Sequence record: MK327941.1
DNA from: Escherichia phage vB_EcoM_G37-3
Direction: 5' to 3' (one strand)
Length of the DNA stretch: 64,000 nt
Positions 3,511 through 54,385 of the stretch are shown piece after piece. The translations under genes were made by a program, and so were the position numbers. The stretch's first letter is position 1. Each line of letters begins with the position of its first letter. The notes beneath the pieces were generated by a model. It saw only the letters and a program-made list of their open reading frames with translations, ran no database searches and had not been told where the DNA came from.

Positions 3511-3539
3511 GTTGTCCTCTCGTTGTTTTCGATGTGAGC

Positions 3540-3567
3540 ATTATACATTAGCTAATCATGTTGTCAA
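3540..3567 (-). promoter_or_regulatory. Early sigma70-type promoter
   Basis: Minus strand TTGACA, 16-nt spacer, TATAAT, followed by conserved leader and RBS. Confidence 0.55.
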
Positions 3568-3576
3568 CACCCCAAA

Positions 3577-3606
3577 ACGAAAAAGCCGACCCTTTCGGAT
3601 CGGCTG
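3577..3606 (-). terminator. Rho-independent terminator downstream of nrdD
   Basis: Minus strand hairpin AGCCGATCC-GAAA-GGGTCGGCT followed by T-rich run. Confidence 0.6.
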
Positions 3607-8717: not shown

Positions 8718-9011
8718 TTAACCATTAATCTTGTTTTTGACTACAAAGGATCGGAACTCATCAAAACCACCGATATAATCACCATCATAGAAAATCTGCG
8801 GCATGGTGGCAATAACTTCTACCCCTGCGCGATCCTGAATATCGGCAATGATAGAATCAATCTTTACCGGACGACCGTTTTCGTCCACACCATCATTAAC
8901 CGGAATGTAGATGTAAGGGATCTTACGCGCTTCACAAAGGCGCTTTGCATTCTGGCAATACTTACAGTTGTAACCTTCAAAACCAAAAATTTCTACCATG
9001 TTATACCTCAA
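8718..9011 (-). CDS. nrdC: Glutaredoxin/thioredoxin-like NrdC
   Basis: CKYCQNAKRL redox motif and MPQIFYDGDYIGGFDE resemble T4 NrdC. Confidence 0.75.
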   Translation of the reverse strand: MRYNMVEIFGFEGYNCKYCQNAKRLCEARKIPYIYIPVNDGVDENGRPVKIDSIIADIQDRAGVEVIATMPQIFYDGDYIGGFDEFRSFVVKNKING

Positions 9012-9820
9012 TCTACGTTAGTTACATAAACTTCTTGCGTATCAGAAGACTTACCACCTGAACGATCTAGGCAATAGGTCTTATTCAACAGGACGCAGTT
9101 TAAATCATTCCGCTTGATAAAGTCAAGGAGATGATCATTTACCTTTCCCTTATGATGCGTGACATTACTGATACCAAACTGAAAACCACGCGCCATAATC
9201 GATTCTACCCACTGATAGAATTTAATCTCTTCCTCGTCACTCCAGAACTTATTATATTCCGCAGAAGTGATAAGGTACGGCGGGTCCAAATAAACGAAAT
9301 CACCTGGCAAGATCTCGATCTCGTCATAGCGACCAGACGTAAAACTGATTCGACCGTCTTTGTTTTCTTCCTTAAAATTCAGGACACGCTCTACCGCGTT
9401 TTCGTTAAAAGTCCGGCGACCAAAATTAGCATTAAATTCTCCCTTCCTGTTATGGCGGTTAATGTTGCTAAAACTGTGCTGAATCAGAACAAACAGAGAT
9501 AGCGGATCTGGATTCTCATTATACTTCTTGCGGAATGCCATATAAGAATCTTTATCATCACGAGACAAACCATTCTCGGCAATAATCAGCTTGATCGTAG
9601 AAACCGGATCAGGACACTCGTCAATCGCTTTGTACGCGTCAATTAAGCGGTGATCATAGTCATTAGCCAGAACACCCCCTTCGACGTACAGAGACACGCT
9701 CAAGCCACCACAAAAGGCATCAACAAAGCGGTTATAGTGCTTAGGGAAATACTTACTAACACTTGGCAATAACTTTTCCTTATTGCCAGTATAGGGAATT
9801 AAACCTAATGCTTTCTTCAT
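9008..9820 (-). CDS. dam: DNA adenine methyltransferase (Dam-like, alpha class)
   Basis: N-terminal FVDAFCGGLSVSL (motif I) and FVYLDPPYLITSAEYNKFW (motif IV DPPY), collinear with T4 Dam. Confidence 0.85.
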   Translation of the reverse strand: MKKALGLIPYTGNKEKLLPSVSKYFPKHYNRFVDAFCGGLSVSLYVEGGVLANDYDHRLIDAYKAIDECPDPVSTIKLIIAENGLSRDDKDSYMAFRKKYNENPDPLSLFVLIQHSFSNINRHNRKGEFNANFGRRTFNENAVERVLNFKEENKDGRISFTSGRYDEIEILPGDFVYLDPPYLITSAEYNKFWSDEEEIKFYQWVESIMARGFQFGISNVTHHKGKVNDHLLDFIKRNDLNCVLLNKTYCLDRSGGKSSDTQEVYVTNVD

Positions 9821-15481: not shown

Positions 15482-15510
15482 ATTATGCTATACCCTATTC
15501 CTGTTGTCAA
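15482..15510 (-). promoter_or_regulatory. Early sigma70-type promoter (PeSL-like cassette)
   Basis: Minus strand TTGACA, 17-nt spacer, CATAAT, conserved leader. Confidence 0.5.
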
Positions 15511-15520
15511 CACCTAAAAA

Positions 15521-15550
15521 CGAAAAAGCCACCCTTTCGGATGGCTTTTT
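15521..15550 (-). terminator. Rho-independent terminator
   Basis: Minus strand hairpin GCCATCCGAAAGGGTGGC followed by TTTTTCGTTTTT. Confidence 0.6.
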
Positions 15551-42800: not shown

Positions 42801-42937
42801 TTGCAATGAGTCCACTGTTTGACCAGTCGGCGGTAACATTCTCTATGTTCCGTGAGCTTGTGGATAAACGGTTGAAGGATAATATAGGGAATCCACGCGA
42901 TCCGAAGAATCCGACACAGAGGAAAATTAATGGCTAA
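39851..42937 (+). CDS. 7: Baseplate wedge protein gp7
   Basis: 1028 aa, collinear with T4 gp7 (IKAPSVTSL, YLFERFQPIVKVSNDKGQSWKA, NPRDPKNPTQ). Confidence 0.92.
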   Translation: MIKAPSVTSLTIEKLSANQAYITWDDVGENFFYFVELAETRTRDGEIIPVDELSWVNLGYTAEQNWFEDKNLFPEYYYKFRVAVAAEGFEQSKWVETEEFQTFKTNAYNFSMMREFNLANEFIKEKFTYDNREYVKFNTDLIQASLMKEDFVFSPEYANMTNISNYIVVDENFHEIQDHIEKVCTDINHTMLAEMNGVLYLFERFQPIVKVSNDKGQSWKAYKAFNDRVGNPVSRTCVYQSKTTTYVLGYDRIFYGRQASDTRWSADDVRFSDDTITFAKVGDENDLGFDVEVFGVFSRLTGDTTKYAEAMACSDDYLWVGAKDVIRRIRLKNTPVDTVQGSPTFGEKIFDPDVIRVTGNDKAVIQKMDVVDGKLLVFVTGEVKQRYQDPTKPENVVPSDDAGVYLIGSDGLSFQRVFGNTPQEREYIQHGFSNMSTNGDEVFISHYNHHFESILPDPETAEKYELGEAVKYSHEPTYLTDKKIHQTTFRASYDDLRIWELGPQAYYNEADYTWMRRNGVRVWITNDNRPLVVYPEVIYTQEVDTSGILDQNRINREVYDKGTVTCYLNNVKFEGFKQYASGVMFHKNTGEIIGFYQFNYRVRDQVGVYWKPTNVAFVAELQNQVREVPWVPVHYDREQDPDLRPLLNKMTPDSFLLENENFRKFSEYYLQFLSDGSGTYYNKLKNLIKNKYPREKDAYEYLWSEMNKRNIYADKNKRDAVVRFFESRKSDFYSTKGVEASYKFLFKLLYNEDVEIEVESQAGLEYDIVVSSTNIDEDIVGRTIYTPTGRANVTYLEREYEGGRLRWRVTIHNLIGRFEEGQVIKSEKTAFEGMILVGVRGKELLSSSIDYINRSRSQYTMKIKSALPVSRYANDVMRFVHPVGFGFIGVTLLTMFINSGLSMKHTETIIQSLKNYKFDSGLPSVYPDRVADLDVDGNIKKDPLTGKALYLTSPLIGDEFPVPPEYDQENSELFHGLKASERRFAMSPLFDQSAVTFSMFRELVDKRLKDNIGNPRDPKNPTQRKING

Positions 42938-43925
42938 TGAAAATAGTGTGATCTATCGCTCAATCATTACTAGTAAATTCAGAACGGAAAAACTTCTGAA
43001 TTTCTATAATTCTGTAGGCGATGGGGCAAATCAAATTACAATTTATGGAACGTTTGGACGTTCGGAGCCGTGGTCAGAAAACGAAAAAGAGGTGGGCTTT
43101 GCCCCACCTTATCCGACCGATTCAACGGCTGGTGTTGTTGACATGTGGACCCATATGATGGGGGCGGTTAAGATTAACAAATCACTTCTTGATGCGGTTA
43201 TCCCTCGTAAAGATTGGGGTGATACCGGACAGGATAACCCGCGCACATTCTTTATCAATGACATTGTTGTTGTCAACTCAGCACCATATAACCGAACTGA
43301 TGTTGGTAGCGGCTGGATGGTGTATCGCGTAACCGATGTTCCTGATCGCGGTTACTGCTCGATTTCAAGCATTGACGCTAAAGTAGAGTGTTTGAAGTTG
43401 GGCGGAAAGTGGACACCCACTCATGAATCAATTGCGCCACCTGTAGGAAAGGGCGATTCTATTGATATGGGTGATGGGTATCGTTGGGAATATCTGTACA
43501 CAATTCCACCTGATGCGGCGATCAACCGTTGCACCAATGAACATATTGTTGTACCGTTCCCCGATGAACTGCGACAAGATCCGGCGCGTTGGGGTTATGA
43601 CAATGTGATCACCTGGTATAATGACTATAATCTGCTTTATCGGCTGAAAGTAGTAACTTTGCGTTTTCAGGCTTATATGGACTCTGCGCAATTCCCAACT
43701 ACCGCGTTAGTGGGTAATACTGGTTTCCGTCAGTTAAGCATTATCCTTAACCCATTGGAAAAGAAAGCACGCCCTAGCGATCCAGACGTTAAAGCGGTTG
43801 AAGATAAGTACCGACCGCAAGACTTAGAGCCACACTCAGGCGAAATGATCTACATGGAAAACCGACAACCTATCGTTCGGTCATTAGATCAAACAGAACT
43901 TGTTTCTGTATTGTTTGAGTTCTAA
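42930..43925 (+). CDS. 8: Baseplate wedge protein gp8
   Basis: VIYRSIITSKFRTEKLLNFYNS, FGRSEPW matches T4 gp8. Confidence 0.9.
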   Translation: MANENSVIYRSIITSKFRTEKLLNFYNSVGDGANQITIYGTFGRSEPWSENEKEVGFAPPYPTDSTAGVVDMWTHMMGAVKINKSLLDAVIPRKDWGDTGQDNPRTFFINDIVVVNSAPYNRTDVGSGWMVYRVTDVPDRGYCSISSIDAKVECLKLGGKWTPTHESIAPPVGKGDSIDMGDGYRWEYLYTIPPDAAINRCTNEHIVVPFPDELRQDPARWGYDNVITWYNDYNLLYRLKVVTLRFQAYMDSAQFPTTALVGNTGFRQLSIILNPLEKKARPSDPDVKAVEDKYRPQDLEPHSGEMIYMENRQPIVRSLDQTELVSVLFEF

Positions 43926-43941
43926 GTGTATGATTTAAAAA

Positions 43942-43966
43942 GCCAATTCTAGAGAGTTGGCTTTTT
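43942..43966 (+). terminator. Rho-independent terminator after gene 8
   Basis: Hairpin AGCCAA-TTCTAGAGAG-TTGGCT followed by TTTTT. Confidence 0.6.
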
Positions 43967-43969
43967 CTA

Positions 43970-43997
43970 TTTTGGGTGTTGACAATCTTGTCTGATA
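43970..43997 (+). promoter_or_regulatory. Sigma70-type promoter driving inserted cassette
   Basis: TTGACA (43970-43975), 16-nt spacer, TATAAT (43992-43997); RBS GGAGGA before ATG 44036. Confidence 0.65.
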
Positions 43998-44035
43998 AGG
44001 TATAATGCTCACATCTAAACAACGGAGGATAAATT

Positions 44036-44293
44036 ATGGCACGTCGTAAATTTACAGATAATTGTGAAGCAATTCAGGTATCCCCTTGCGGTTGGGATGT
44101 GATCGCGAACGGTGAAAAGATCGGAGAGATCATCGATCATACTCATTCATCACTAGCCGATTACACCGATGAACTATGGGAGGGTATCAACTTCATGAAT
44201 GACACTAAACGATTCAAGACTATCGACGAAGCTATCTATTTTGTGTATAATCCAACTTTCGGTATGTGGGGAACTAGAAAATGGCACGCGTAA
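44036..44293 (+). CDS. Hypothetical protein (85 aa), cassette gene 1
   Basis: ATG with RBS GGAGGA; no recognised domain. Confidence 0.5.
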   Translation: MARRKFTDNCEAIQVSPCGWDVIANGEKIGEIIDHTHSSLADYTDELWEGINFMNDTKRFKTIDEAIYFVYNPTFGMWGTRKWHA

Positions 44294-44613
44294 ACATTAA
44301 ACTACACTACACAATGGGTAAAGCTAAGTTCCCAATGCAAAAGCATTACTATGGTCTACGTGCACAAGATCCAAAACTCTATGGTACTCATTGGTTTTGT
44401 AAACATGATAACCAATGGCACACATACGAAGAAATGCACGAGATGATGAAACAGGGTATTGAATTGAGTTATTCTAATTATGACCATCGTATAACTTGCA
44501 TTCGAAAATTGAAACGATGGATTCGTAAGAATCCGCAATTTAAAAACTTTGTGTTCTTTATGTCTCATGTTTATTTGGGACATAGCGTTACCGTCACAGC
44601 AAAGGTTAAATAA
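44281..44613 (+). CDS. Hypothetical protein (110 aa, His/Trp-rich), cassette gene 2
   Basis: ORF overlapping upstream stop; no recognised domain. Confidence 0.5.
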   Translation: MARVNIKLHYTMGKAKFPMQKHYYGLRAQDPKLYGTHWFCKHDNQWHTYEEMHEMMKQGIELSYSNYDHRITCIRKLKRWIRKNPQFKNFVFFMSHVYLGHSVTVTAKVK

Positions 44614-45452
44614 TGGCACGACTTTCTAAACAAGAACAAAAATTACACGATCGGGTGATGGAGTTGATTAATTCAGATCGCCCATTGACATATGAAGAAA
44701 AAGAATTTTGCTATAATAACTATCATGGCGATGGTCTAGGCGGTTCAGGTGCATTCTTTACCCCAGAAGGGCTTGCATGGGATTTTACCATCGATGCACA
44801 TTGCACAGGAAAAGTATTAGATCTTTGTGCTGGGATCGGTCGCTTATCTTTTTGTATGTTACATCGTTGTAAGCCAGAAAAGATCGTATGCGTCGAACTC
44901 AATCCAGAATTTGCGCGGATTGGCAAGCGACTATTACCGGAGGCAGAATGGATCACCAGCGATGTATTCGAATTTGAGTCAAACGAAAAATTCGATGTGG
45001 TGATCAGCAATCCACCCTTCGGGAAAATCAATACAACCGACACAAAGGATGTATTTGAGTACACTGGTGGCGAATTTGAATTTAAGGTTATGACATTAGG
45101 CCAGAAGTTTGCCGATGTAGGTTATTTTATTGTTCCTTCTGGTTCCGCTGGTTTTGCCTATTCCGGCAGACCTTATTATGACGGGACCATGAAGTCTAAT
45201 AAATATCTAAAATGGAGCAAACAAACTGGTTTGGTGACTTATGCCGGATGTGGGATCGATACATCAATCTATCGTGATGAATGGCATAGTACCAACGTTT
45301 TAACAGAAGTGGTTGAGGTTCGGTATTACGAGAAAGAAGCCGTAGAAGCGCCTAAATCACGTCCTAACGAACAAATAGAAGAAAGTAAGGAGATTACCTT
45401 ACCGAAACAGGAAAGCGAGTCTGGGACGCTCTCAGATTTGTTTGACATTTAA
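44613..45452 (+). CDS. Putative gamma-class amino-methyltransferase (N6-adenine-type, NPPF motif), cassette gene 3
   Basis: FFTPEGLAWDF (motif X), VLDLCAGIGRLS (motif I), DVVISNPPFGK (motif IV) in order X-I-IV. Confidence 0.65.
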   Translation: MARLSKQEQKLHDRVMELINSDRPLTYEEKEFCYNNYHGDGLGGSGAFFTPEGLAWDFTIDAHCTGKVLDLCAGIGRLSFCMLHRCKPEKIVCVELNPEFARIGKRLLPEAEWITSDVFEFESNEKFDVVISNPPFGKINTTDTKDVFEYTGGEFEFKVMTLGQKFADVGYFIVPSGSAGFAYSGRPYYDGTMKSNKYLKWSKQTGLVTYAGCGIDTSIYRDEWHSTNVLTEVVEVRYYEKEAVEAPKSRPNEQIEESKEITLPKQESESGTLSDLFDI

Positions 45453-45454
45453 TT

Positions 45455-45482
45455 ATAAGCCGTCCTTGTGGACGGCTTTTTT
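45455..45482 (+). terminator. Rho-independent terminator after cassette
   Basis: Hairpin AGCCGTCC-TTGT-GGACGGCT followed by TTTTTT. Confidence 0.65.
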
Positions 45483-45492
45483 GTATGTGTTT

Positions 45493-45500
45493 TATAAATA
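45493..45500 (+). promoter_or_regulatory. T4-type late promoter TATAAATA upstream of gene 9
   Basis: Exact TATAAATA about 27 nt before gene 9 ATG. Confidence 0.6.
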
Positions 45501-45527
45501 ATACATCATAACATGAGGAATTAAACA

Positions 45528-46382
45528 ATGGCACAAGTTCCAAAGAAAAGAATAGACACAGGTACTGTCGGCAATCCATCGACTGGCGATATCTTATATG
45601 ATGGCGGTAATAAAATTAACGATAACTTTGATTCAATATATGACGCATTTGCTGATCAACGTCTAAAAGAGATTGATCATGGTGCTGGTCGAATGGTTAT
45701 TCATGCCACGGGATACTATCAGAAACACCCACGACAAAGCTATGCAGGGTCGGCGGTAGAGATTGGTAGCTTACATGATATTGACACAACTCAAGGCGCA
45801 TTAATAGCAATTCTTCCTAAAGCTAAAGTCGGTGAGGGTGTTGTGTTCATAAATAGTAACGGTAGCTTTTCGGCAACAACACCACTAAACATTAGAACTC
45901 AAGCAGGAGATTCTATTAGCGGGTATTCCGGTGACGCGGTAATAACTCAACCTTTCTCAAAAGTCACCGTCTGGTGTACTGCCGTCGAAGGTAGTAGAGT
46001 TACCTGGCGGCTAGGCATCGAAAGTATGTTTACCGACACAACCACACCACTAGATAGGACAGTTAATGTAACTGGAGTTGCAACCAACGTTGCTATTGCA
46101 GCAAAAACAGAATATGTATCAATTAAACTATTAACAACCGCTAGCAATACGACGGGTTCAAAAATGCGCTCAAGCGAAACTCTATTGATGATTGATGCCA
46201 GAGCCGGAAAAGTTTACGCGACAGAATATGCGGTTTTACAGAAAACAGAAGACGAATTATACACGGTTCGTTATTTCATTGGTTCCGGCGATAAAGTATA
46301 TGCAGAGTATAAGGCTACTGGCGAAAATATTCGTTTAGCAGTTAAAGCCACAGACACTATTAAAATCGGGGTTGCTACATGA
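45528..46382 (+). CDS. 9: Baseplate wedge / long tail fibre socket protein gp9
   Basis: KKRIDTGTVGNPSTGDILYDGGNKINDNFDSIYDAF matches T4 gp9. Confidence 0.9.
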   Translation: MAQVPKKRIDTGTVGNPSTGDILYDGGNKINDNFDSIYDAFADQRLKEIDHGAGRMVIHATGYYQKHPRQSYAGSAVEIGSLHDIDTTQGALIAILPKAKVGEGVVFINSNGSFSATTPLNIRTQAGDSISGYSGDAVITQPFSKVTVWCTAVEGSRVTWRLGIESMFTDTTTPLDRTVNVTGVATNVAIAAKTEYVSIKLLTTASNTTGSKMRSSETLLMIDARAGKVYATEYAVLQKTEDELYTVRYFIGSGDKVYAEYKATGENIRLAVKATDTIKIGVAT

Positions 46383-48182: not shown

Positions 48183-48827
48183 ATGATTTCTAAAACACGT
48201 TCTAAAGCAAGCGTATTTTCTAGCGACGCAGCATTCATTTCATACGATCCGGGGTCGAAAGACCCCATTATTGGTGACATTCGCCCAATTGGTGGATTAA
48301 ACGTAGACCAATCTCGCAAAGGTTCTTTTATTAACAACGTACAATCAGCCATTGATGATTTGTATAGCATTTCTATGCTTAATGTCGGTGATGTATTGGT
48401 AACTACAAATTCAACTCCACCGGAAGCGGCTGGACAAATAGAAACTCTTTCTTTCACTGGAACGGTAACAAATAAACACGATCCAGCCGCGACAAAAGTT
48501 GTAATTGAAGTTTTGGGTTATCCATTTGTTGTTAATGTTGGAACATCGAATGTTGCATTATGCGAAATGGTCACAACAAAATTTACTGAATTGAAAGACA
48601 AAAGTATCTTATTCTCTAAAGTTGAGAGGAAAGGTACTGGCAACGATAAAATAGAGATTCAGTATATTGATTCAAACGCACACGAAGCAACGGTCGTAGA
48701 AAAATATGGTATTAGCGTTCGTGGGGAAATAAATTCCCCTGCTCGTTATGGTTATGGTGCATGGTCCAGATTGGGAACGGAAGAAAAATTTGATTCAACA
48801 CTATTTTATTTTAAGCGTATTGCGTAA
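48183..48827 (+). CDS. 11: Baseplate wedge protein gp11
   Basis: C-terminus GYGAWSRLGTEEKFDSTLFYFKRIA matches T4 gp11. Confidence 0.88.
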   Translation: MISKTRSKASVFSSDAAFISYDPGSKDPIIGDIRPIGGLNVDQSRKGSFINNVQSAIDDLYSISMLNVGDVLVTTNSTPPEAAGQIETLSFTGTVTNKHDPAATKVVIEVLGYPFVVNVGTSNVALCEMVTTKFTELKDKSILFSKVERKGTGNDKIEIQYIDSNAHEATVVEKYGISVRGEINSPARYGYGAWSRLGTEEKFDSTLFYFKRIA

Positions 48828-48838
48828 GGTGTAAAATT

Positions 48839-50242
48839 ATGAATAACACTATTAATCACGTAAAAGACGATGCACAGTATGTTAAGTTTGACCCTACCGG
48901 AAATTGGCCTAGCAATATAAAAAACGTACAAGCGGCATTAGCCGCTATTCAGGGATTTGCGATTGCAGGTCTTCCAACGGCAACCGAAGAAACAGCGGGT
49001 ATTGCTGAAATTGCTACTCAACAAGAAGTAGATGATGGGTTGGATGGAACGAAAATTGTTACCCCAAAAACATTGGCTGTTAAGCTGTCAAGACCGGACG
49101 CAACAAAACTTGTCAAAGGGATCACTCGCTATGCTAATAACGATGAAGCTATGGGCGATACTCCAAATATTGCAATTGGTCCTGATACATTAACCCATGT
49201 ATTCGAGAACAAGAAAGCAACGGAAACCGTACAGGGTACAATTAAAATCTGTTCTATGGATGCGGCAAAAATAGGTAGCGATGACACTATGGCAGTAACG
49301 CCTAAAAAGATGCACGCTGCTATTGCTCAGATTGTTCCAGGGTTGATTCCAGAACAAAACACGGCGACCGAGTCCCGTGAGGGTTTAGTTAGACTGGCGA
49401 CAAGCCAACAAACGCTTGCTGGTACTATCAGAGAAGGATTTGCCGTTAGTCCATATGCATTTTCCAACGCAAGAGCCAATGAAAATCAGGCGGGTACTGT
49501 TAAAATTGCCTCATCCCAACAAATGATTGACGGCAATGACAACACAGTAGTAGTATCAGCACAAAAATTTGCGAACACTAAAGCAACCACTGGACAATTC
49601 GGTGTTGTTAAGCTAACAGATAACCCAGGATCAGGCGAGGCAAACACAGCACTGTCGGCAAACGCTCGTGTATTGCCTCTAAGTGGTGGTGTCGTTACTG
49701 GTGATGTGTATCGTCATAGCGGAGGCGACGGAAACCAGTTTATCATTAAAAATGAACTGGATGGTCTTTGTATGCCTATTGGTGGCATCATTCTTACAGC
49801 ATTTAACAGTTTCGACCACGCACAATTCAAAATCTGTAACGGTCAATGGTTAAATAAACACCAATATCCAGTATTATTTTCACGAATCGGTTTCACTTAT
49901 GGCGGAGATGGTGGAGACAACTTTGCTCTACCCGATATGCGAGGGCTTGTTGCTAGAGGATGCGACCACGGTCGAGGACTAGACCCAGGTCGTGGATTTG
50001 GTACTTATCAAGACGACACCATGCAACATATGACAGGTAACTTCCCTGTAGCTAACCGTTGGCGCGGTTGGACTGGTGGTGCATTTGCCATCACAGGCGG
50101 TCAATGGAGCACGAACTATAAAAACGGTGGTGGCGATGATTGGGGTAGTATTGTTAACTTTGACAGCGCAAGACAGGTTAGAACGTCTGGCGAAACTCGC
50201 GTTAAAAGCCTTGCATTAAACTACATGATAAGGGTACAATAA
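48839..50242 (+). CDS. 12: Short tail fibre protein gp12
   Basis: YVKFDPTGNWPSNIKNVQAALAAI and repeated GT-x-KIA / GVVKLT motifs as in T4 gp12. Confidence 0.88.
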   Translation: MNNTINHVKDDAQYVKFDPTGNWPSNIKNVQAALAAIQGFAIAGLPTATEETAGIAEIATQQEVDDGLDGTKIVTPKTLAVKLSRPDATKLVKGITRYANNDEAMGDTPNIAIGPDTLTHVFENKKATETVQGTIKICSMDAAKIGSDDTMAVTPKKMHAAIAQIVPGLIPEQNTATESREGLVRLATSQQTLAGTIREGFAVSPYAFSNARANENQAGTVKIASSQQMIDGNDNTVVVSAQKFANTKATTGQFGVVKLTDNPGSGEANTALSANARVLPLSGGVVTGDVYRHSGGDGNQFIIKNELDGLCMPIGGIILTAFNSFDHAQFKICNGQWLNKHQYPVLFSRIGFTYGGDGGDNFALPDMRGLVARGCDHGRGLDPGRGFGTYQDDTMQHMTGNFPVANRWRGWTGGAFAITGGQWSTNYKNGGGDDWGSIVNFDSARQVRTSGETRVKSLALNYMIRVQ

Positions 50243-53007: not shown

Positions 53008-53652
53008 ATGAAAAGACGAAACACATTTTTACGATTGTATGTTACCGAATTTTTATCATCCTCCGGCAAAAAGATATATGGAGGGAAACGACACTCTCCA
53101 TATAAAAATTTCGAATCAGACCCGTATGTCGGGTCTGGAGTGATTATAAAACGAGCAATAGAAAAATATGGAAAGGATTGTGTAATTTCCATATCTTGGT
53201 CAAAACCATTTGAAACACCAGAATTATTGAAAGAGGCCGAAGAATTATTAATAGACGAACTCAAAGACAAATATTCCTATTTTTGCGCTAATTTGGTTAA
53301 AGGTGGACAAGGTGGTTCATATTATGACAAAGACAAAAATCCACGCGTAGGAAAAAAGAGAACTAAAGAAAGTCGAAATAAAATGTCAGAGGCAGCAAAA
53401 AATAGAAAATGGACAGAAGAAGGGTTGAAACGTAGAATCGAAGCAACAATTAAAATGAAAAAAACAGCAAAAGTCCCAGATTTTTCTGGCGACAAAAATC
53501 CAGCCGCAAAGAAAATACAGGTAGGAGATCTTATTTTTAATACTGGAAAAGAATGCGCGAAATATTTTAATATATGTCAAGCAACGGTCATAGATAGGTG
53601 CAAAAATCAACGTCCTAAATGGAAAGAATGGAGATATTATGATTCAATATAA
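53008..53652 (+). CDS. GIY-YIG homing endonuclease (Seg-like)
   Basis: [24 protein letters not shown] (GIY-x10-YIG) and C-terminal basic DNA-binding region; ATG at 53008 with RBS GGGGGA. Confidence 0.7.
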
Positions 53653-54385
53653 TTCTAACTTATTCGCAAGACTAGAAAATGGTAGCGGATATGATAAAAC
53701 ATACGCGACGGAGATTTTAAATCCGTGGGTGAATTTTAATTCACATACAAACACCCAGACGTTAGCCGACGTTATGGTCGCCGAAGCTATTCAGATGCGA
53801 GGTGTAGAATTATATTACATCCCTCGTGAATTTGTCAAACCAGATATGATATTTGGTGAGGATGTTCAAAGCAAATTTACTAAAGCATGGAAATTTGCGG
53901 CTTATATTAACTCATTTGATGGGTATGAAGGAGCGGGTAACTTCTTCTCTAGTTTCGGTTATCAAGCCAATGATGAACTAACTTTTACGGTTAACCCCAA
54001 CCTATTCAAGCATCAAGTAGATGATCAAGAGCCAAAATCAGGTGACTTGATTTATATTCCAATGAGTAATGATTTATTTGAAATCTCATATGTAGAGCCA
54101 TATCAGCCGTTTTTTCAGGCTGGCAAAAATGCCATGCGTAAAATTATTGCAGAGAAATTCGTGTATAGCGGCGAGGAATTGCGACCAGAATTACAACGCA
54201 ATGAGGGAATTAATGTTGATGAGTTTGCGGATCTGGACCTTGCACCGATCACTAATCTGGACGGATTAACAGATATCAACTTAGAACAGTACAAAGAAGA
54301 TAAGCAATTCAGAAGCGAAGGACAAGATTTTATTGACCCGTTTGATCCTATTAATGGCAAGGGTTCACCTTTTGCTAATTTTTGA
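53639..54385 (+). CDS. 14: Neck protein gp14
   Basis: 248-aa ORF at gene 14 position. Confidence 0.8.

What the first reader, a model, noticed from the sequence alone, without database searches (positions are those of the whole stretch)
43926..45482. Autonomous three-gene cassette with its own sigma70 promoter and terminator between baseplate genes 8 and 9, including a second amino-methyltransferase
Genes 8 and 9 are separated by about 1.6 kb holding three ORFs (85 aa, 110 aa, 279 aa). The unit has a terminator after gene 8 (43942-43966), a near-consensus TTGACA-16-TATAAT promoter (43970-43997), a terminator after the third ORF (45455-45482), and then the late promoter TATAAATA for gene 9. 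The third ORF carries methyltransferase motifs X-I-IV (FFTP, LDLCAGIG, NPPF), in addition to the alpha-class Dam at 9008-9820. The two small ORFs have no recognisable domains. The arrangement suggests an early-expressed accessory module, plausibly anti-restriction or anti-defence, placed inside the late structural operon. From memory, T4 has gene 9 directly after gene 8.
Basis: partly seen in the sequence, partly recalled or inferred. Interest (0 to 1): 0.75.

Follow-up and report, generated by a model that had tools for sequence, protein, structure and literature searches.

The report
Early methyltransferase cassette with polymerase-like clamp tail
The 1.6 kb between baseplate genes 8 and 9 is a known kind of self-contained early-gene insert of RB49-like phages, but its methyltransferase ends in the same short peptide the phage's DNA polymerase uses to hold the sliding clamp, which suggests it methylates DNA at the replication fork.

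Summary

The window is a Krischvirus (RB49-like) phage. The same unit is present in at least 57 records and absent from the 8/9 junction of three other T4-like genera. Its architecture matches the published PeSL promoter/stem-loop cassettes, and the methyltransferase was listed in 2006 as RB49ORF143w.

It is not an obligate three-gene unit. Divergent relatives carry the methyltransferase alone or with an unrelated ORF. ORF1 and ORF2 are lineage-restricted ORFans.

The methyltransferase is a gamma-type N6-adenine enzyme, not PrmC. Fold alone does not separate DNA from rRNA substrates.

New here: its last residues (TLSDLFDI) match the phage DNA polymerase C-terminus (SLTDLFDI), which is the counterpart of T4's gp45 clamp-binding peptide. 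The peptide follows a disordered, fast-evolving linker, is invariant among close relatives, and is missing from bacterial homologues.

Best reading: an early-expressed DNA adenine methyltransferase tethered to the sliding clamp. This is inferred and untested. An anti-restriction role is plausible but unproven.

The parts
42930..43925 (+). gene 8 (baseplate wedge subunit), upstream late gene; context
   Evidence: ORF list; annotated gp8 in MK327947.1
43937..43966 (+). Stem-loop/intrinsic terminator ending gene 6-7-8 late transcription. It is the stem-loop half of the PeSL-type element and is followed by CTATTTTGGG.
   Evidence: 13-bp stem; -16 kcal/mol, z -4.0, 0/200 shuffles; annotated as terminator in TB34; stem kept and only the loop changed in L010
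43979..44006 (+). Early sigma70 promoter TTGACA-16-TATAAT (12/12)
   Evidence: 6 perfect sites in the window against 0.15 expected, the only one on the + strand; hexamers conserved in L010 and L011; shares 16-28 nt stretches with other early promoter regions at 3531-3587 and 15504-15531
44024..44029 (+). Shine-Dalgarno GGAGGA for ORF1
   Evidence: sequence
44036..44293 (+). ORF1, 85 aa, acidic (pI 5.2), ORFan (phrog_16603)
   Evidence: A full HMMER search of 1.84 billion representatives found only its own cluster, a 39-aa fragment and two 60-aa relatives at about 50% identity. 13 synonymous against 8 aa-changing codon differences to L010.
44281..44613 (+). ORF2, 110 aa, basic (pI 9.9), fast-evolving ORFan (phrog_12630). 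C40, H42, H47, H69 and C73 are invariant.
   Evidence: 72.7% aa identity to L010, where neighbouring genes are 94-97%; AF2 pLDDT 61, no fold match
44613..45332 (+). Methyltransferase catalytic core (aa 1-240). Motif X FFTP is at 44754-44765, motif I LDLCAGIG at 44817-44840 and motif IV NPPF at 45009-45020.
45333..45425 (+). Disordered acidic linker (aa 241-271)
   Evidence: pLDDT below 50 for 245-268; 48% variable columns among 17 sequences of at least 93% identity, against 12% in the core; length and sequence unrelated in P0002, P0003 and P0004
45426..45449 (+). C-terminal peptide TLSDLFDI, the proposed gp45 sliding-clamp-binding motif
   Evidence: 6 of the last 7 residues are identical to the phage DNA polymerase C-terminus LTDLFDI. 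Next best among 1044 six-frame ORFs is 3/7. 0/8 variable columns. The codons differ from the polymerase codons. The polymerase tail aligns with T4-type ASLDFLFG.
45457..45478 (+). Intrinsic terminator of the early unit (followed by TTTTTTG)
   Evidence: -16.5 kcal/mol, z -4.95; annotated in TB34; structure kept in L010 and L011
45493..45500 (+). T4-type late promoter TATAAATA that restarts late transcription for gene 9
   Evidence: position; the count is not above chance; conserved in L010 and L011
45528..46382 (+). gene 9 (baseplate wedge tail fibre connector); context

Best explanation
The segment is a PeSL-type early transcription unit that an ancestor of the RB49-like phages (Krischvirus) acquired between late genes 8 and 9.

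Host sigma70 RNA polymerase starts at 43979-44006 soon after infection, transcribes ORF1, ORF2 and the methyltransferase as one translationally coupled mRNA, and stops at 45457-45478. The upstream stem-loop stops late transcription coming from genes 6-8, and TATAAATA restarts it for gene 9, so the insert does not disturb baseplate expression. These steps are read from sequence and supported by published tests on other PeSLs.

The conserved resident gene is a gamma-type (X-I-IV, NPPF) N6-adenine methyltransferase. The promoter-proximal slot is variable and holds 0, 1 or 2 ORFans. ORF1 and ORF2 are therefore separate early accessory proteins, not subunits of the enzyme.

The enzyme carries a flexible acidic linker that ends in TLSDLFDI, a near copy of the polymerase C-terminus that in T4 and RB69 docks onto the gp45 sliding clamp. 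I infer that the methyltransferase rides on gp45 behind the replication fork. There it would methylate adenines in newly made phage DNA at specific, fairly sparse sites. This would add a second protective or marking methylation to Dam in a phage group whose cytosines are unmodified.

Sub-confidences:
- early autonomous unit of PeSL type: 0.9
- N6-adenine-type amino-methyltransferase: 0.85
- tail binds gp45: about 0.6
- substrate is DNA: about 0.6
For: Architecture:
- Perfect promoter, two strong terminators and coupled ORFs.
- The unit is conserved in 57 Krischvirus records and in more distant metagenomic relatives.
- PeSLs are described with tested promoter and terminator activity, including a few in the virion module next to genes of unknown function (PMC2839356).
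- Novel ORFs of RB49 are reported to sit behind early promoters (PMC1524935).

Enzyme:
- The motifs are largely invariant.
- Pfam Eco57I scores above its gathering cut-off.
- The best defence-library match is the MADS DNA methyltransferase mad2, E 4e-17, followed by type II DNA MTase models.

Tail:
- The polymerase ends ASLTDLFDI and the methyltransferase ends GTLSDLFDI. This is unique among 1044 ORFs.
- The L015 orthologue ends TLTDLFDI (7/7 to the polymerase), L014 ends SLSMFDI and L011 ends TLDFVDFSEI, close to the T4 type SLDFLFG.
- The linker is disordered and fast-evolving while the tail is invariant.
- Different codons encode the same residues, so the match is kept at peptide level.
- Bacterial homologues of about 238 aa lack both linker and tail.
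- Published work shows that the hydrophobic-acidic C-termini of gp43, gp33 and gp55 are interchangeable gp45-binding motifs on unstructured linkers (PMC2988020).

Context:
- In RB16, KP15, Phynn and L022 the gene lies between helicase gene 41 and primase gene 61.
- The family is found in 289 phage records, and none listed is a Tequatrovirus or Mosigvirus, although 1473 records have gp9.
- RB49 has unmodified cytosines (PMC4041780).
Against: - No experiment shows DNA methylation, a recognition site or gp45 binding.
- Fold searches rank the rRNA m6A enzymes METTL5 and PH1948 as high as the DNA enzymes.
- There is no separate target-recognition domain, and the core is acidic (pI 5.2).
- The region after motif IV is strongly conserved from Sinorhizobium to Vibrio phages. 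This fits one universal target, such as an RNA, better than the diverse sites expected for anti-restriction.
- HPLC/MS found no detectable modified base in TB34 DNA, and RB49 DNA is cut by DraI, HpaII and NheI. Dense methylation is therefore excluded.
- TB34 is still restricted by BREX.
- In RB16-, KP15- and Phynn-type phages the tail is (L/N)FTFxIE. It shares only the xLF core with their polymerase tails.
- Homologues in Aeromonas P19, phiM12 and GAP32 have no tail, so clamp tethering is not needed for the family's basic activity.
Confidence: 0.5

Rival explanations
1. The enzyme is an RNA methyltransferase (m6A or m2G on host rRNA or tRNA, METTL5/RsmC/TrmN6-like). It is made early to retune translation, and the C-terminal peptide serves another purpose.
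For: - The best PDB sequence hits are PH1948, RsmC and a TrmN6-like protein.
- The NPPFG motif is as in METTL5 and PH1948 (PH1948; METTL5: from knowledge).
- One source names a homologue 'Predicted RNA methylase'.
- The substrate-side region is highly conserved across very different hosts.
- No bulk DNA modification was found in TB34.
Against: - A polymerase-identical clamp peptide has no obvious use for an RNA enzyme.
- All RNA-family models score far below their cut-offs: RsmC 29 against 295, TrmN 16 against 350.
- Pfam Eco57I passes its cut-off, and PADLOC DNA MTase models score higher.
- GAFFTP resembles the HsdM/TaqI type of motif X (from knowledge).
- In other genera the gene lies in the DNA replication gene cluster.
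Confidence: 0.2
2. The three genes form one functional anti-restriction/anti-defence system, with ORF1 and/or ORF2 acting with the methyltransferase, for example as specificity or inhibitor subunits.
For: - One promoter, one terminator and translational coupling.
- The trio is conserved in 57 records.
- ORF2 is basic, has invariant Cys/His residues and evolves fast, as arms-race proteins do.
Against: - L011 and L015 carry the methyltransferase alone at the same junction, and L014 carries an unrelated 154-aa ORF.
- No ORF1 or ORF2 homologue lies next to the enzyme in any other phage or bacterium.
- There are no PADLOC or Pfam hits.
- TB34 remains sensitive to BREX.
Confidence: 0.12
3. The tail is real but works differently. 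It either binds the host beta clamp (the motif resembles QL[SD]LF), or it competes with gp43, gp33 and gp55 for gp45 and so modulates replication or the switch to late transcription. Methylation would then be secondary.
For: - TLSDLF is close to the bacterial beta-binding consensus (from knowledge).
- The gp45-binding tails are interchangeable and compete for the same sites (PMC2988020).
- The enzyme is made early, before late transcription.
Against: - The exact match is to the phage's own polymerase, whose partner is gp45.
- The catalytic motifs are invariant and under purifying selection, with 55 synonymous against 16 aa-changing codons. Catalysis therefore matters.
- Bacterial homologues, which would meet the beta clamp, lack the tail.
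Confidence: 0.1
4. The enzyme is a protein glutamine methyltransferase (PrmC/HemK), as annotated in several GenBank records.
For: - The best NCBIfam hit is TIGR03534 RF_mod_PrmC, E 1.7e-9.
- The records for phages kvi, kaaroe, ECD7 and 011D4 use this name.
Against: - The score is 37.5 against a cut-off of 199.1, and the match covers only the generic SAM-binding stretch 64-137.
- The motif is NPPF, not NPPY.
- There is no PrmC N-terminal domain.
Confidence: 0.03

Closest known systems
PeSL (promoter-early stem-loop) cassettes of RB49/phi1-type phages (Arbiol et al. 2010, PMC2839356; Comeau et al. 2014, PMC4122927)
   Same: It is a consensus sigma70 promoter joined to a stable stem-loop terminator. 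It sits directly after the stop codon of the upstream gene and directly before an ORFan with its own SD. It is a lineage-variable insert, and the paper notes a few such elements inside the virion module next to genes of unknown function.
   Different: I could not check whether this element is one of the 51-52 listed PeSLs, because the supplement is not held. It is fixed in all Krischvirus records rather than variable between RB49 and phi1. The downstream end is a plain terminator plus a late promoter, not a second PeSL, so mini-circle formation between flanking PeSLs is not evident.
gp45 sliding-clamp-binding C-terminal motifs of T4-family gp43, gp33 and gp55 (PMC2988020; RB69 clamp-peptide structure cited there)
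   Same: It is a short hydrophobic-acidic peptide at the extreme C-terminus, on a variable unstructured linker. It is near-identical to the phage's own gp43 tail and follows the [ST]-L-x-x-L/F-F pattern.
   Different: The carrier is a methyltransferase, which I did not find among the described gp45 clients. Binding is not shown.
Gamma-class N6-adenine DNA methyltransferases (M.TaqI, Eco57I family, type I HsdM)
   Different: It has only about 240 structured residues and no separate target-recognition domain or HsdS partner. Its recognition sequence is unknown.
METTL5 / PH1948 rRNA m6A methyltransferases
   Different: Sequence similarity is limited to residues 64-138 (E 4e-4). There is about 100 aa of extra conserved C-terminal structure, an N-terminal helical region and the clamp-type tail.
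Eukaryotic DNMT1-PCNA coupling (PIP box); from general knowledge
   Same: The concept is the same: a maintenance methyltransferase is recruited to the sliding clamp so that methylation follows the fork.
   Different: The enzyme class (C5-cytosine), the motif and the clamp are unrelated. This is an analogy only.

Membership tests
PeSL regulatory cassette (RB49/phi1 type) | Sequence identical or near-identical to the E. coli sigma70 consensus promoter | tested here: met
   TTGACA-16-TATAAT, 12/12; 6 in the window against 0.15 expected
PeSL regulatory cassette (RB49/phi1 type) | Adjacent stable stem-loop able to act as a terminator or attenuator | tested here: met
   43937-43966, 13 bp, -16 kcal/mol, z -4.0, upstream of -35 (one of the five described placements)
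PeSL regulatory cassette (RB49/phi1 type) | Intergenic, between the upstream stop codon and the SD/start of an ORFan | tested here: met
   gp8 stop at 43925; SD at 44024-44029; ORF1 ATG at 44036; ORF1 is an ORFan
PeSL regulatory cassette (RB49/phi1 type) | Repeated-motif similarity to other PeSLs, giving substrates for homologous exchange | tested here: inconclusive
   Only 16-28 nt matches to promoter regions at 3531-3587 and 15504-15531
PeSL regulatory cassette (RB49/phi1 type) | Measured promoter and terminator activity, or inclusion in the published list | not testable with these tools
   The supplement is not held; no expression data
Gamma-class N6-adenine (amino) methyltransferase | Motif order X (FxTP), then I (SAM-binding glycine loop), then IV ((D/N/S)PP(Y/F)) | tested here: met
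   FFTP 48-51, LDLCAGIG 69-76, NPPF 133-136, with most residues invariant
Gamma-class N6-adenine (amino) methyltransferase | Class I Rossmann fold closest to N6-adenine enzymes | tested here: met
Gamma-class N6-adenine (amino) methyltransferase | Curated DNA-MTase family model above its cut-off | tested here: met
   PF07669 Eco57I 29.0 against 25.3; PF02384 N6_Mtase is below its cut-off, 16.7 against 20.4
Gamma-class N6-adenine (amino) methyltransferase | Target-recognition domain or partner, and a defined DNA recognition sequence | tested here: inconclusive
   No separate TRD. The conserved region 140-240 could serve. No adjacent specificity gene is conserved.
Gamma-class N6-adenine (amino) methyltransferase | DNA methylation activity | not testable with these tools
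   Published data exclude only dense modification
T4-family gp45 clamp-binding C-terminal motif | Short hydrophobic and acidic segment at the extreme C-terminus, similar to the gp43, gp33 and gp55 tails | tested here: met
   TLSDLFDI against the gp43 tail SLTDLFDI of the same phage group, unique among 1044 ORFs. gp33 ends TNTLDI and gp55 ends SLDQFYEIEN.
T4-family gp45 clamp-binding C-terminal motif | Joined to the body by a divergent, length-variable, unstructured linker | tested here: met
   pLDDT below 50; 48% variable columns against 0% in the tail; linker length differs in P0002, P0003 and P0004
T4-family gp45 clamp-binding C-terminal motif | Motif retained in orthologues of related phages | tested here: met
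   TLTDLFDI, SLSMFDI and TLDFVDFSEI at the same junction in L015, L014 and L011. In RB16, KP15 and Phynn only an xLF-containing tail of another form is present.
T4-family gp45 clamp-binding C-terminal motif | Physical binding to gp45 | not testable with these tools
PrmC/HemK release-factor glutamine methyltransferase (name used in some records) | Score at or above the equivalog cut-off of TIGR03534; NPPY; N-terminal substrate domain | tested here: not met
   37.5 against 199.1 bits, match limited to 64-137, motif is NPPF
Known anti-defence or defence components (PADLOC) | Match of ORF1 or ORF2 to any model | tested here: not met
   0 families for ORF1, ORF2 and the L014 154-aa ORF

The most novel reading that the evidence does not exclude
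A phage DNA adenine methyltransferase is physically coupled to the replisome by a polymerase-mimicking sliding-clamp peptide. Nascent phage DNA would then be methylated as it is made and never exposed unmethylated to host nucleases. This would be a viral, independently evolved counterpart of DNMT1-PCNA coupling and a new class of gp45 client. The two distinct tail types on orthologues (xLSDLFDI and xLFTFxIE) would show repeated evolution of such tethers.
Probability: 0.35. Interest if true: 0.7.

Novelty: new variant of a known kind. Interest (0 to 1): 0.5.

Why it matters
The cassette itself is ordinary for RB49-like phages. What is new is a specific, cheap-to-test hypothesis.

The list of proteins that use the T4-family sliding clamp as a tool-belt (polymerase, gp33, gp55, RNase H, ligase) may include an accessory methyltransferase. 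That would explain how a small, acidic enzyme without a recognisable DNA-binding domain could act efficiently on replicating DNA. It would also show how phages with unmodified cytosines add epigenetic protection.

The result also corrects database names. 'Release factor glutamine methyltransferase' is wrong.

Finally, the promoter-proximal slot of the unit is a hot spot where ORFans are swapped, which helps in choosing candidates for host-interaction screens.

Tried and rejected
- A conserved small partner upstream of the methyltransferase across phages. ORF2, the L014 154-aa ORF, DUF8046 proteins, GAP32_139, P19_0316 and others are mutually unrelated, apart from the DUF8046 group.
- A recent DNA copy of the gene 43 3' end as the source of the tail. 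Only the last 14 nt match, the upstream codons differ and the flanks are unrelated.
- A foreign-composition island. GC is 0.36-0.42 against 0.40 for the window.
- An ncRNA in the region. There is only a sub-threshold Rfam hit on the terminator.
- PrmC identity, rejected on the family cut-off.
- The Citrobacter chromosomal context of the homologue. It is an island with an HNH gene, IS elements and unknown small ORFs next to bssR, and it says nothing about function.
- The afdb50 fold library was unavailable.
- Literature searches for a clamp-binding motif on a phage DNA methyltransferase found nothing.
Full report
**Identity of the window.** The region 43400-46000 is 100% identical to Escherichia phage vB_EcoM_G5211 (Krischvirus, the RB49 group). 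It is 94-98% identical to the other matching Krischvirus records; 57 of 58 cover it nearly end to end, all with gp8, two hypothetical proteins, a 'putative/DNA methyltransferase' and gp9. The window is not colinear with G5211 over its whole length, so it comes from a close relative.

**Observation.**
- gp8 ends at 43925.
- A 13-bp stem-loop lies at 43937-43966 (-16 kcal/mol, z -4.0).
- A 12/12 TTGACA-16-TATAAT promoter follows at 43979-44006, which is 9 bp right of the stated coordinates.
- GGAGGA precedes ORF1 (85 aa, 44036-44293).
- ORF2 (110 aa, 44281-44613) overlaps ORF1 by 13 nt.
- The 279-aa ORF (44613-45452) starts on the ORF2 stop codon.
- A second terminator (45457-45478, -16.5 kcal/mol, z -4.95) and TATAAATA (45493-45500) precede gene 9 at 45528.

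Perfect sigma70 consensus promoters are strongly over-represented, with 6 against 0.15 expected, and this is the only one on the + strand. TATAAATA is not enriched by count. Its support is its position and its conservation in distant relatives. In a Tequatrovirus, a Tulanevirus and a Slopekvirus, gene 9 follows gene 8 after 63, 9 and 9 bp. The insert is therefore specific to this lineage.

**What kind of element it is.** Arbiol et al. (PMC2839356) described about 50 'PeSL' elements per genome in RB49 and phi1. Each is a consensus sigma70 early promoter fused to a stem-loop terminator, placed before an ORFan. Promoter and terminator activity were shown for tested examples, and a few elements lie inside the virion module next to genes of unknown function. 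The authors state that the stem-loop prevents spill-over between early ORFan and late virion transcription. The element at 43937-44006 has those features, and it shares 16-28 nt stretches with other early promoter regions of the window. Nolan et al. 2006 (PMC1524935) already list the third ORF as RB49ORF143w, 'methyltransferase small domain', and note that novel ORFs sit behind early promoters. The cassette as such is therefore a known kind of feature.

**Is it a three-gene unit?** No. The evidence is as follows.
- Metagenomic relatives with 62-70% identical methyltransferases keep the gene at the 8/9 junction with the same promoter, terminator and late-promoter frame.
- L011 and L015 have no small ORFs, and L014 has one unrelated 154-aa ORF.
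- L010, a closer relative, has all three.
- ORF1 and ORF2 have no relatives outside this phage group in a 5.8-billion-protein search.
- A full HMMER scan for ORF1 added only two 60-aa proteins.
- No domain or defence-library hit exists.
- The ORF2 model is unreliable.

Both are real genes, judged by conservation. ORF2 evolves unusually fast, with 72.7% aa identity to L010 where its neighbours show 94-97%. The methyltransferase is the stable resident, and the promoter-proximal slot is a swap site for ORFans.

**The methyltransferase.**
- Most residues of the motifs FFTP, LDLCAGIG and NPPF are invariant in 26-37 homologues.
- Pfam gives MTS at 38.5 bits and Eco57I at 29.0 bits (cut-off 25.3).
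- It belongs to phrog_3820 (E 1e-117).
- PADLOC's best match is the MADS DNA methyltransferase mad2 (E 4e-17), followed by type II DNA methyltransferase models.
- PrmC, the name used in several records, is rejected: 37.5 bits against a 199.1 cut-off.
- The AF2 model is good (pLDDT 84.7).
- Foldseek agrees, with the best TM-score and rmsd to M.TaqI.

The protein is thus an N6-adenine-type amino-methyltransferase of gamma architecture. The fold does not decide between DNA and rRNA.

**Distribution.** Homologues occur in 289 phage records. These include RB16 and KP15-like phages, Cronobacter, Citrobacter and Enterobacter T4-likes, Aeromonas, Sinorhizobium, Dickeya and Vibrio phages, and the jumbo phage GAP32. 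None of the listed records is a Tequatrovirus or Mosigvirus, although 1473 records carry gp9. In RB16, KP15, Phynn and L022 the gene lies between helicase gene 41 and primase gene 61. About 238-aa homologues sit in variable islands of Citrobacter, Klebsiella, Enterobacter and Salmonella chromosomes.

**The new point: the C-terminus.** The phage enzymes of the T4-like enterobacterial groups carry an extension that the bacterial homologues lack. In the window protein, residues 241-271 are acidic and predicted disordered (pLDDT below 50), and the protein ends ...SGTLSDLFDI.

The DNA polymerase (gp43) of G5211 ends ...VASLTDLFDI. Its last 60 residues are at least 99% identical in 56 Krischvirus records. 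Among 1044 six-frame ORFs of at least 40 aa covering the whole phage genome, identity to the last seven polymerase residues is 0-3 for every ORF except the polymerase itself (7) and this methyltransferase (6).

The polymerase tail aligns with the T4-type C-terminus ...EEKASLDFLFG. The review PMC2988020 identifies this C-terminus, together with the C-termini of gp33 and gp55, as the interchangeable hydrophobic-acidic gp45 sliding-clamp-binding motif, carried on an unstructured and divergent linker.

The methyltransferase tail behaves like such a short linear motif.
- Among 17 sequences of at least 93% identity, 12% of core columns vary, 48% of linker columns vary and 0 of 8 tail columns vary.
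- The 70%-identical orthologue has an unrelated, longer linker yet ends TLTDLFDI, which is 7/7 to the polymerase.
- Others end SLSMFDI or TLDFVDFSEI, the latter being T4-like.
- At DNA level the shared residues use different codons (CTT/CTC, GAC/GAT, CTG/TTG) and the flanks are unrelated, so this is not a recent copy.

**Limits of the tail argument.** In RB16-, KP15- and Phynn-type phages the tail is (L/N)FTF(R/T/V)IE. It shares only an xLF core with their polymerase tails SLNTLFGDDW, SLNDLFGDW and SLSDLFDF. Homologues in Aeromonas P19, phiM12 and GAP32 have no tail. Binding to gp45 could not be modelled or measured here.

**Mechanism proposed.** The shown steps are the sequence architecture of an insulated early unit, a conserved catalytic amino-methyltransferase, and a conserved polymerase-like C-terminal peptide on a flexible linker. 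The inferred steps are these. The enzyme is made early, is recruited by gp45 clamps loaded on replicating phage DNA, and methylates adenine N6 at specific, fairly sparse sites. It thereby supplements Dam in a phage group with unmodified cytosines (PMC4041780).

Dense or non-specific methylation is unlikely. TB34, with a 98% identical enzyme, showed no detectable modified nucleoside by HPLC/MS. That paper reports only cytosine derivatives even for T4, so its sensitivity to sparse m6A is doubtful. RB49 DNA is cut by DraI, HpaII and NheI. A general anti-defence effect is not seen against BREX, which restricts TB34 100-fold.

**Rivals.** The main rival is an RNA methyltransferase. It is favoured by the METTL5/PH1948 fold rank and by the very conserved substrate-side region. 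It is disfavoured by the clamp peptide, the DNA-family model scores and the position in replication gene clusters. Other rivals are a true three-component system, a beta-clamp binder or clamp competitor, and PrmC (rejected).

**Verdict.** The cassette is a known kind (a PeSL-type ORFan module with an annotated gene). The polymerase-like clamp tail on the methyltransferase is, as far as the searched literature shows, unreported. It makes this a new variant worth a simple binding and methylome test.

Noticed in passing
window 1-43400 compared with MK327947.1: The window is not colinear with G5211. Window 1 maps to record 32777 and window 17001 to record 49763, but window 43400 maps to record 74994. 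The window therefore holds about 1.17 kb more sequence somewhere between 17001 and 43400.
   Followed up: no
window 53809-53838 (- strand): A perfect TTGACA-18-TATAAT lies antisense inside a + strand late ORF (53639-54385). It could be a chance match or an antisense promoter.
   Followed up: partly
window 44036, 44281, 44613, 45528: ORF1, ORF2, the methyltransferase and gene 9 all begin ATGGCAC(G/A), giving Met-Ala-Arg or Met-Ala-Gln.
   Followed up: no
window 44281-44613 (ORF2): ORF2 evolves much faster than its neighbours, with 16 synonymous against 30 aa-changing codon differences to L010. It is basic (pI 9.9) and has invariant C40, H42, H47, H69 and C73, a possible metal site.
   Followed up: partly
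L017 29265-30761 (DNA ligase) and 48402-49349 (RNase H) of G5211: The ligase ends ...KEVFDV and RNase H begins MTYNPFTKTTATLNDFFDD. Both resemble the clamp-binding type of motif.
   Followed up: no
L016 17090-20882 (G5211 gene 43): The DNA polymerase gene is annotated in two pieces separated by an ORF with weak similarity to an intron endonuclease.
   Followed up: no
L007 2667-3065, L008 2676-3065, L021 9670-10038, L022 6986-7330: In RB16-, KP15- and Phynn-type phages the methyltransferase is always preceded by an overlapping DUF8046 (PF26219, phrog_4953) protein. It is unrelated to ORF2.
   Followed up: partly
L003-L006 (Citrobacter freundii chromosome, upstream of bssR/yliH): The bacterial homologue sits at the edge of a variable island with an HNH endonuclease, IS elements and many unknown small ORFs.
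   Followed up: partly
literature, PMC13390438: Krischvirus phages SAP and TB34 are 99.96% identical, yet SAP DNA is reported with glucosyl-hmC and TB34 DNA as unmodified. The authors could not explain this.
   Followed up: no
window 43865-43967: There is a sub-threshold Rfam match to Bacteroides sRNA BTnc231 (26 bits against an 80-bit gathering score) over the end of gene 8 and the terminator. It is most likely chance.
   Followed up: no
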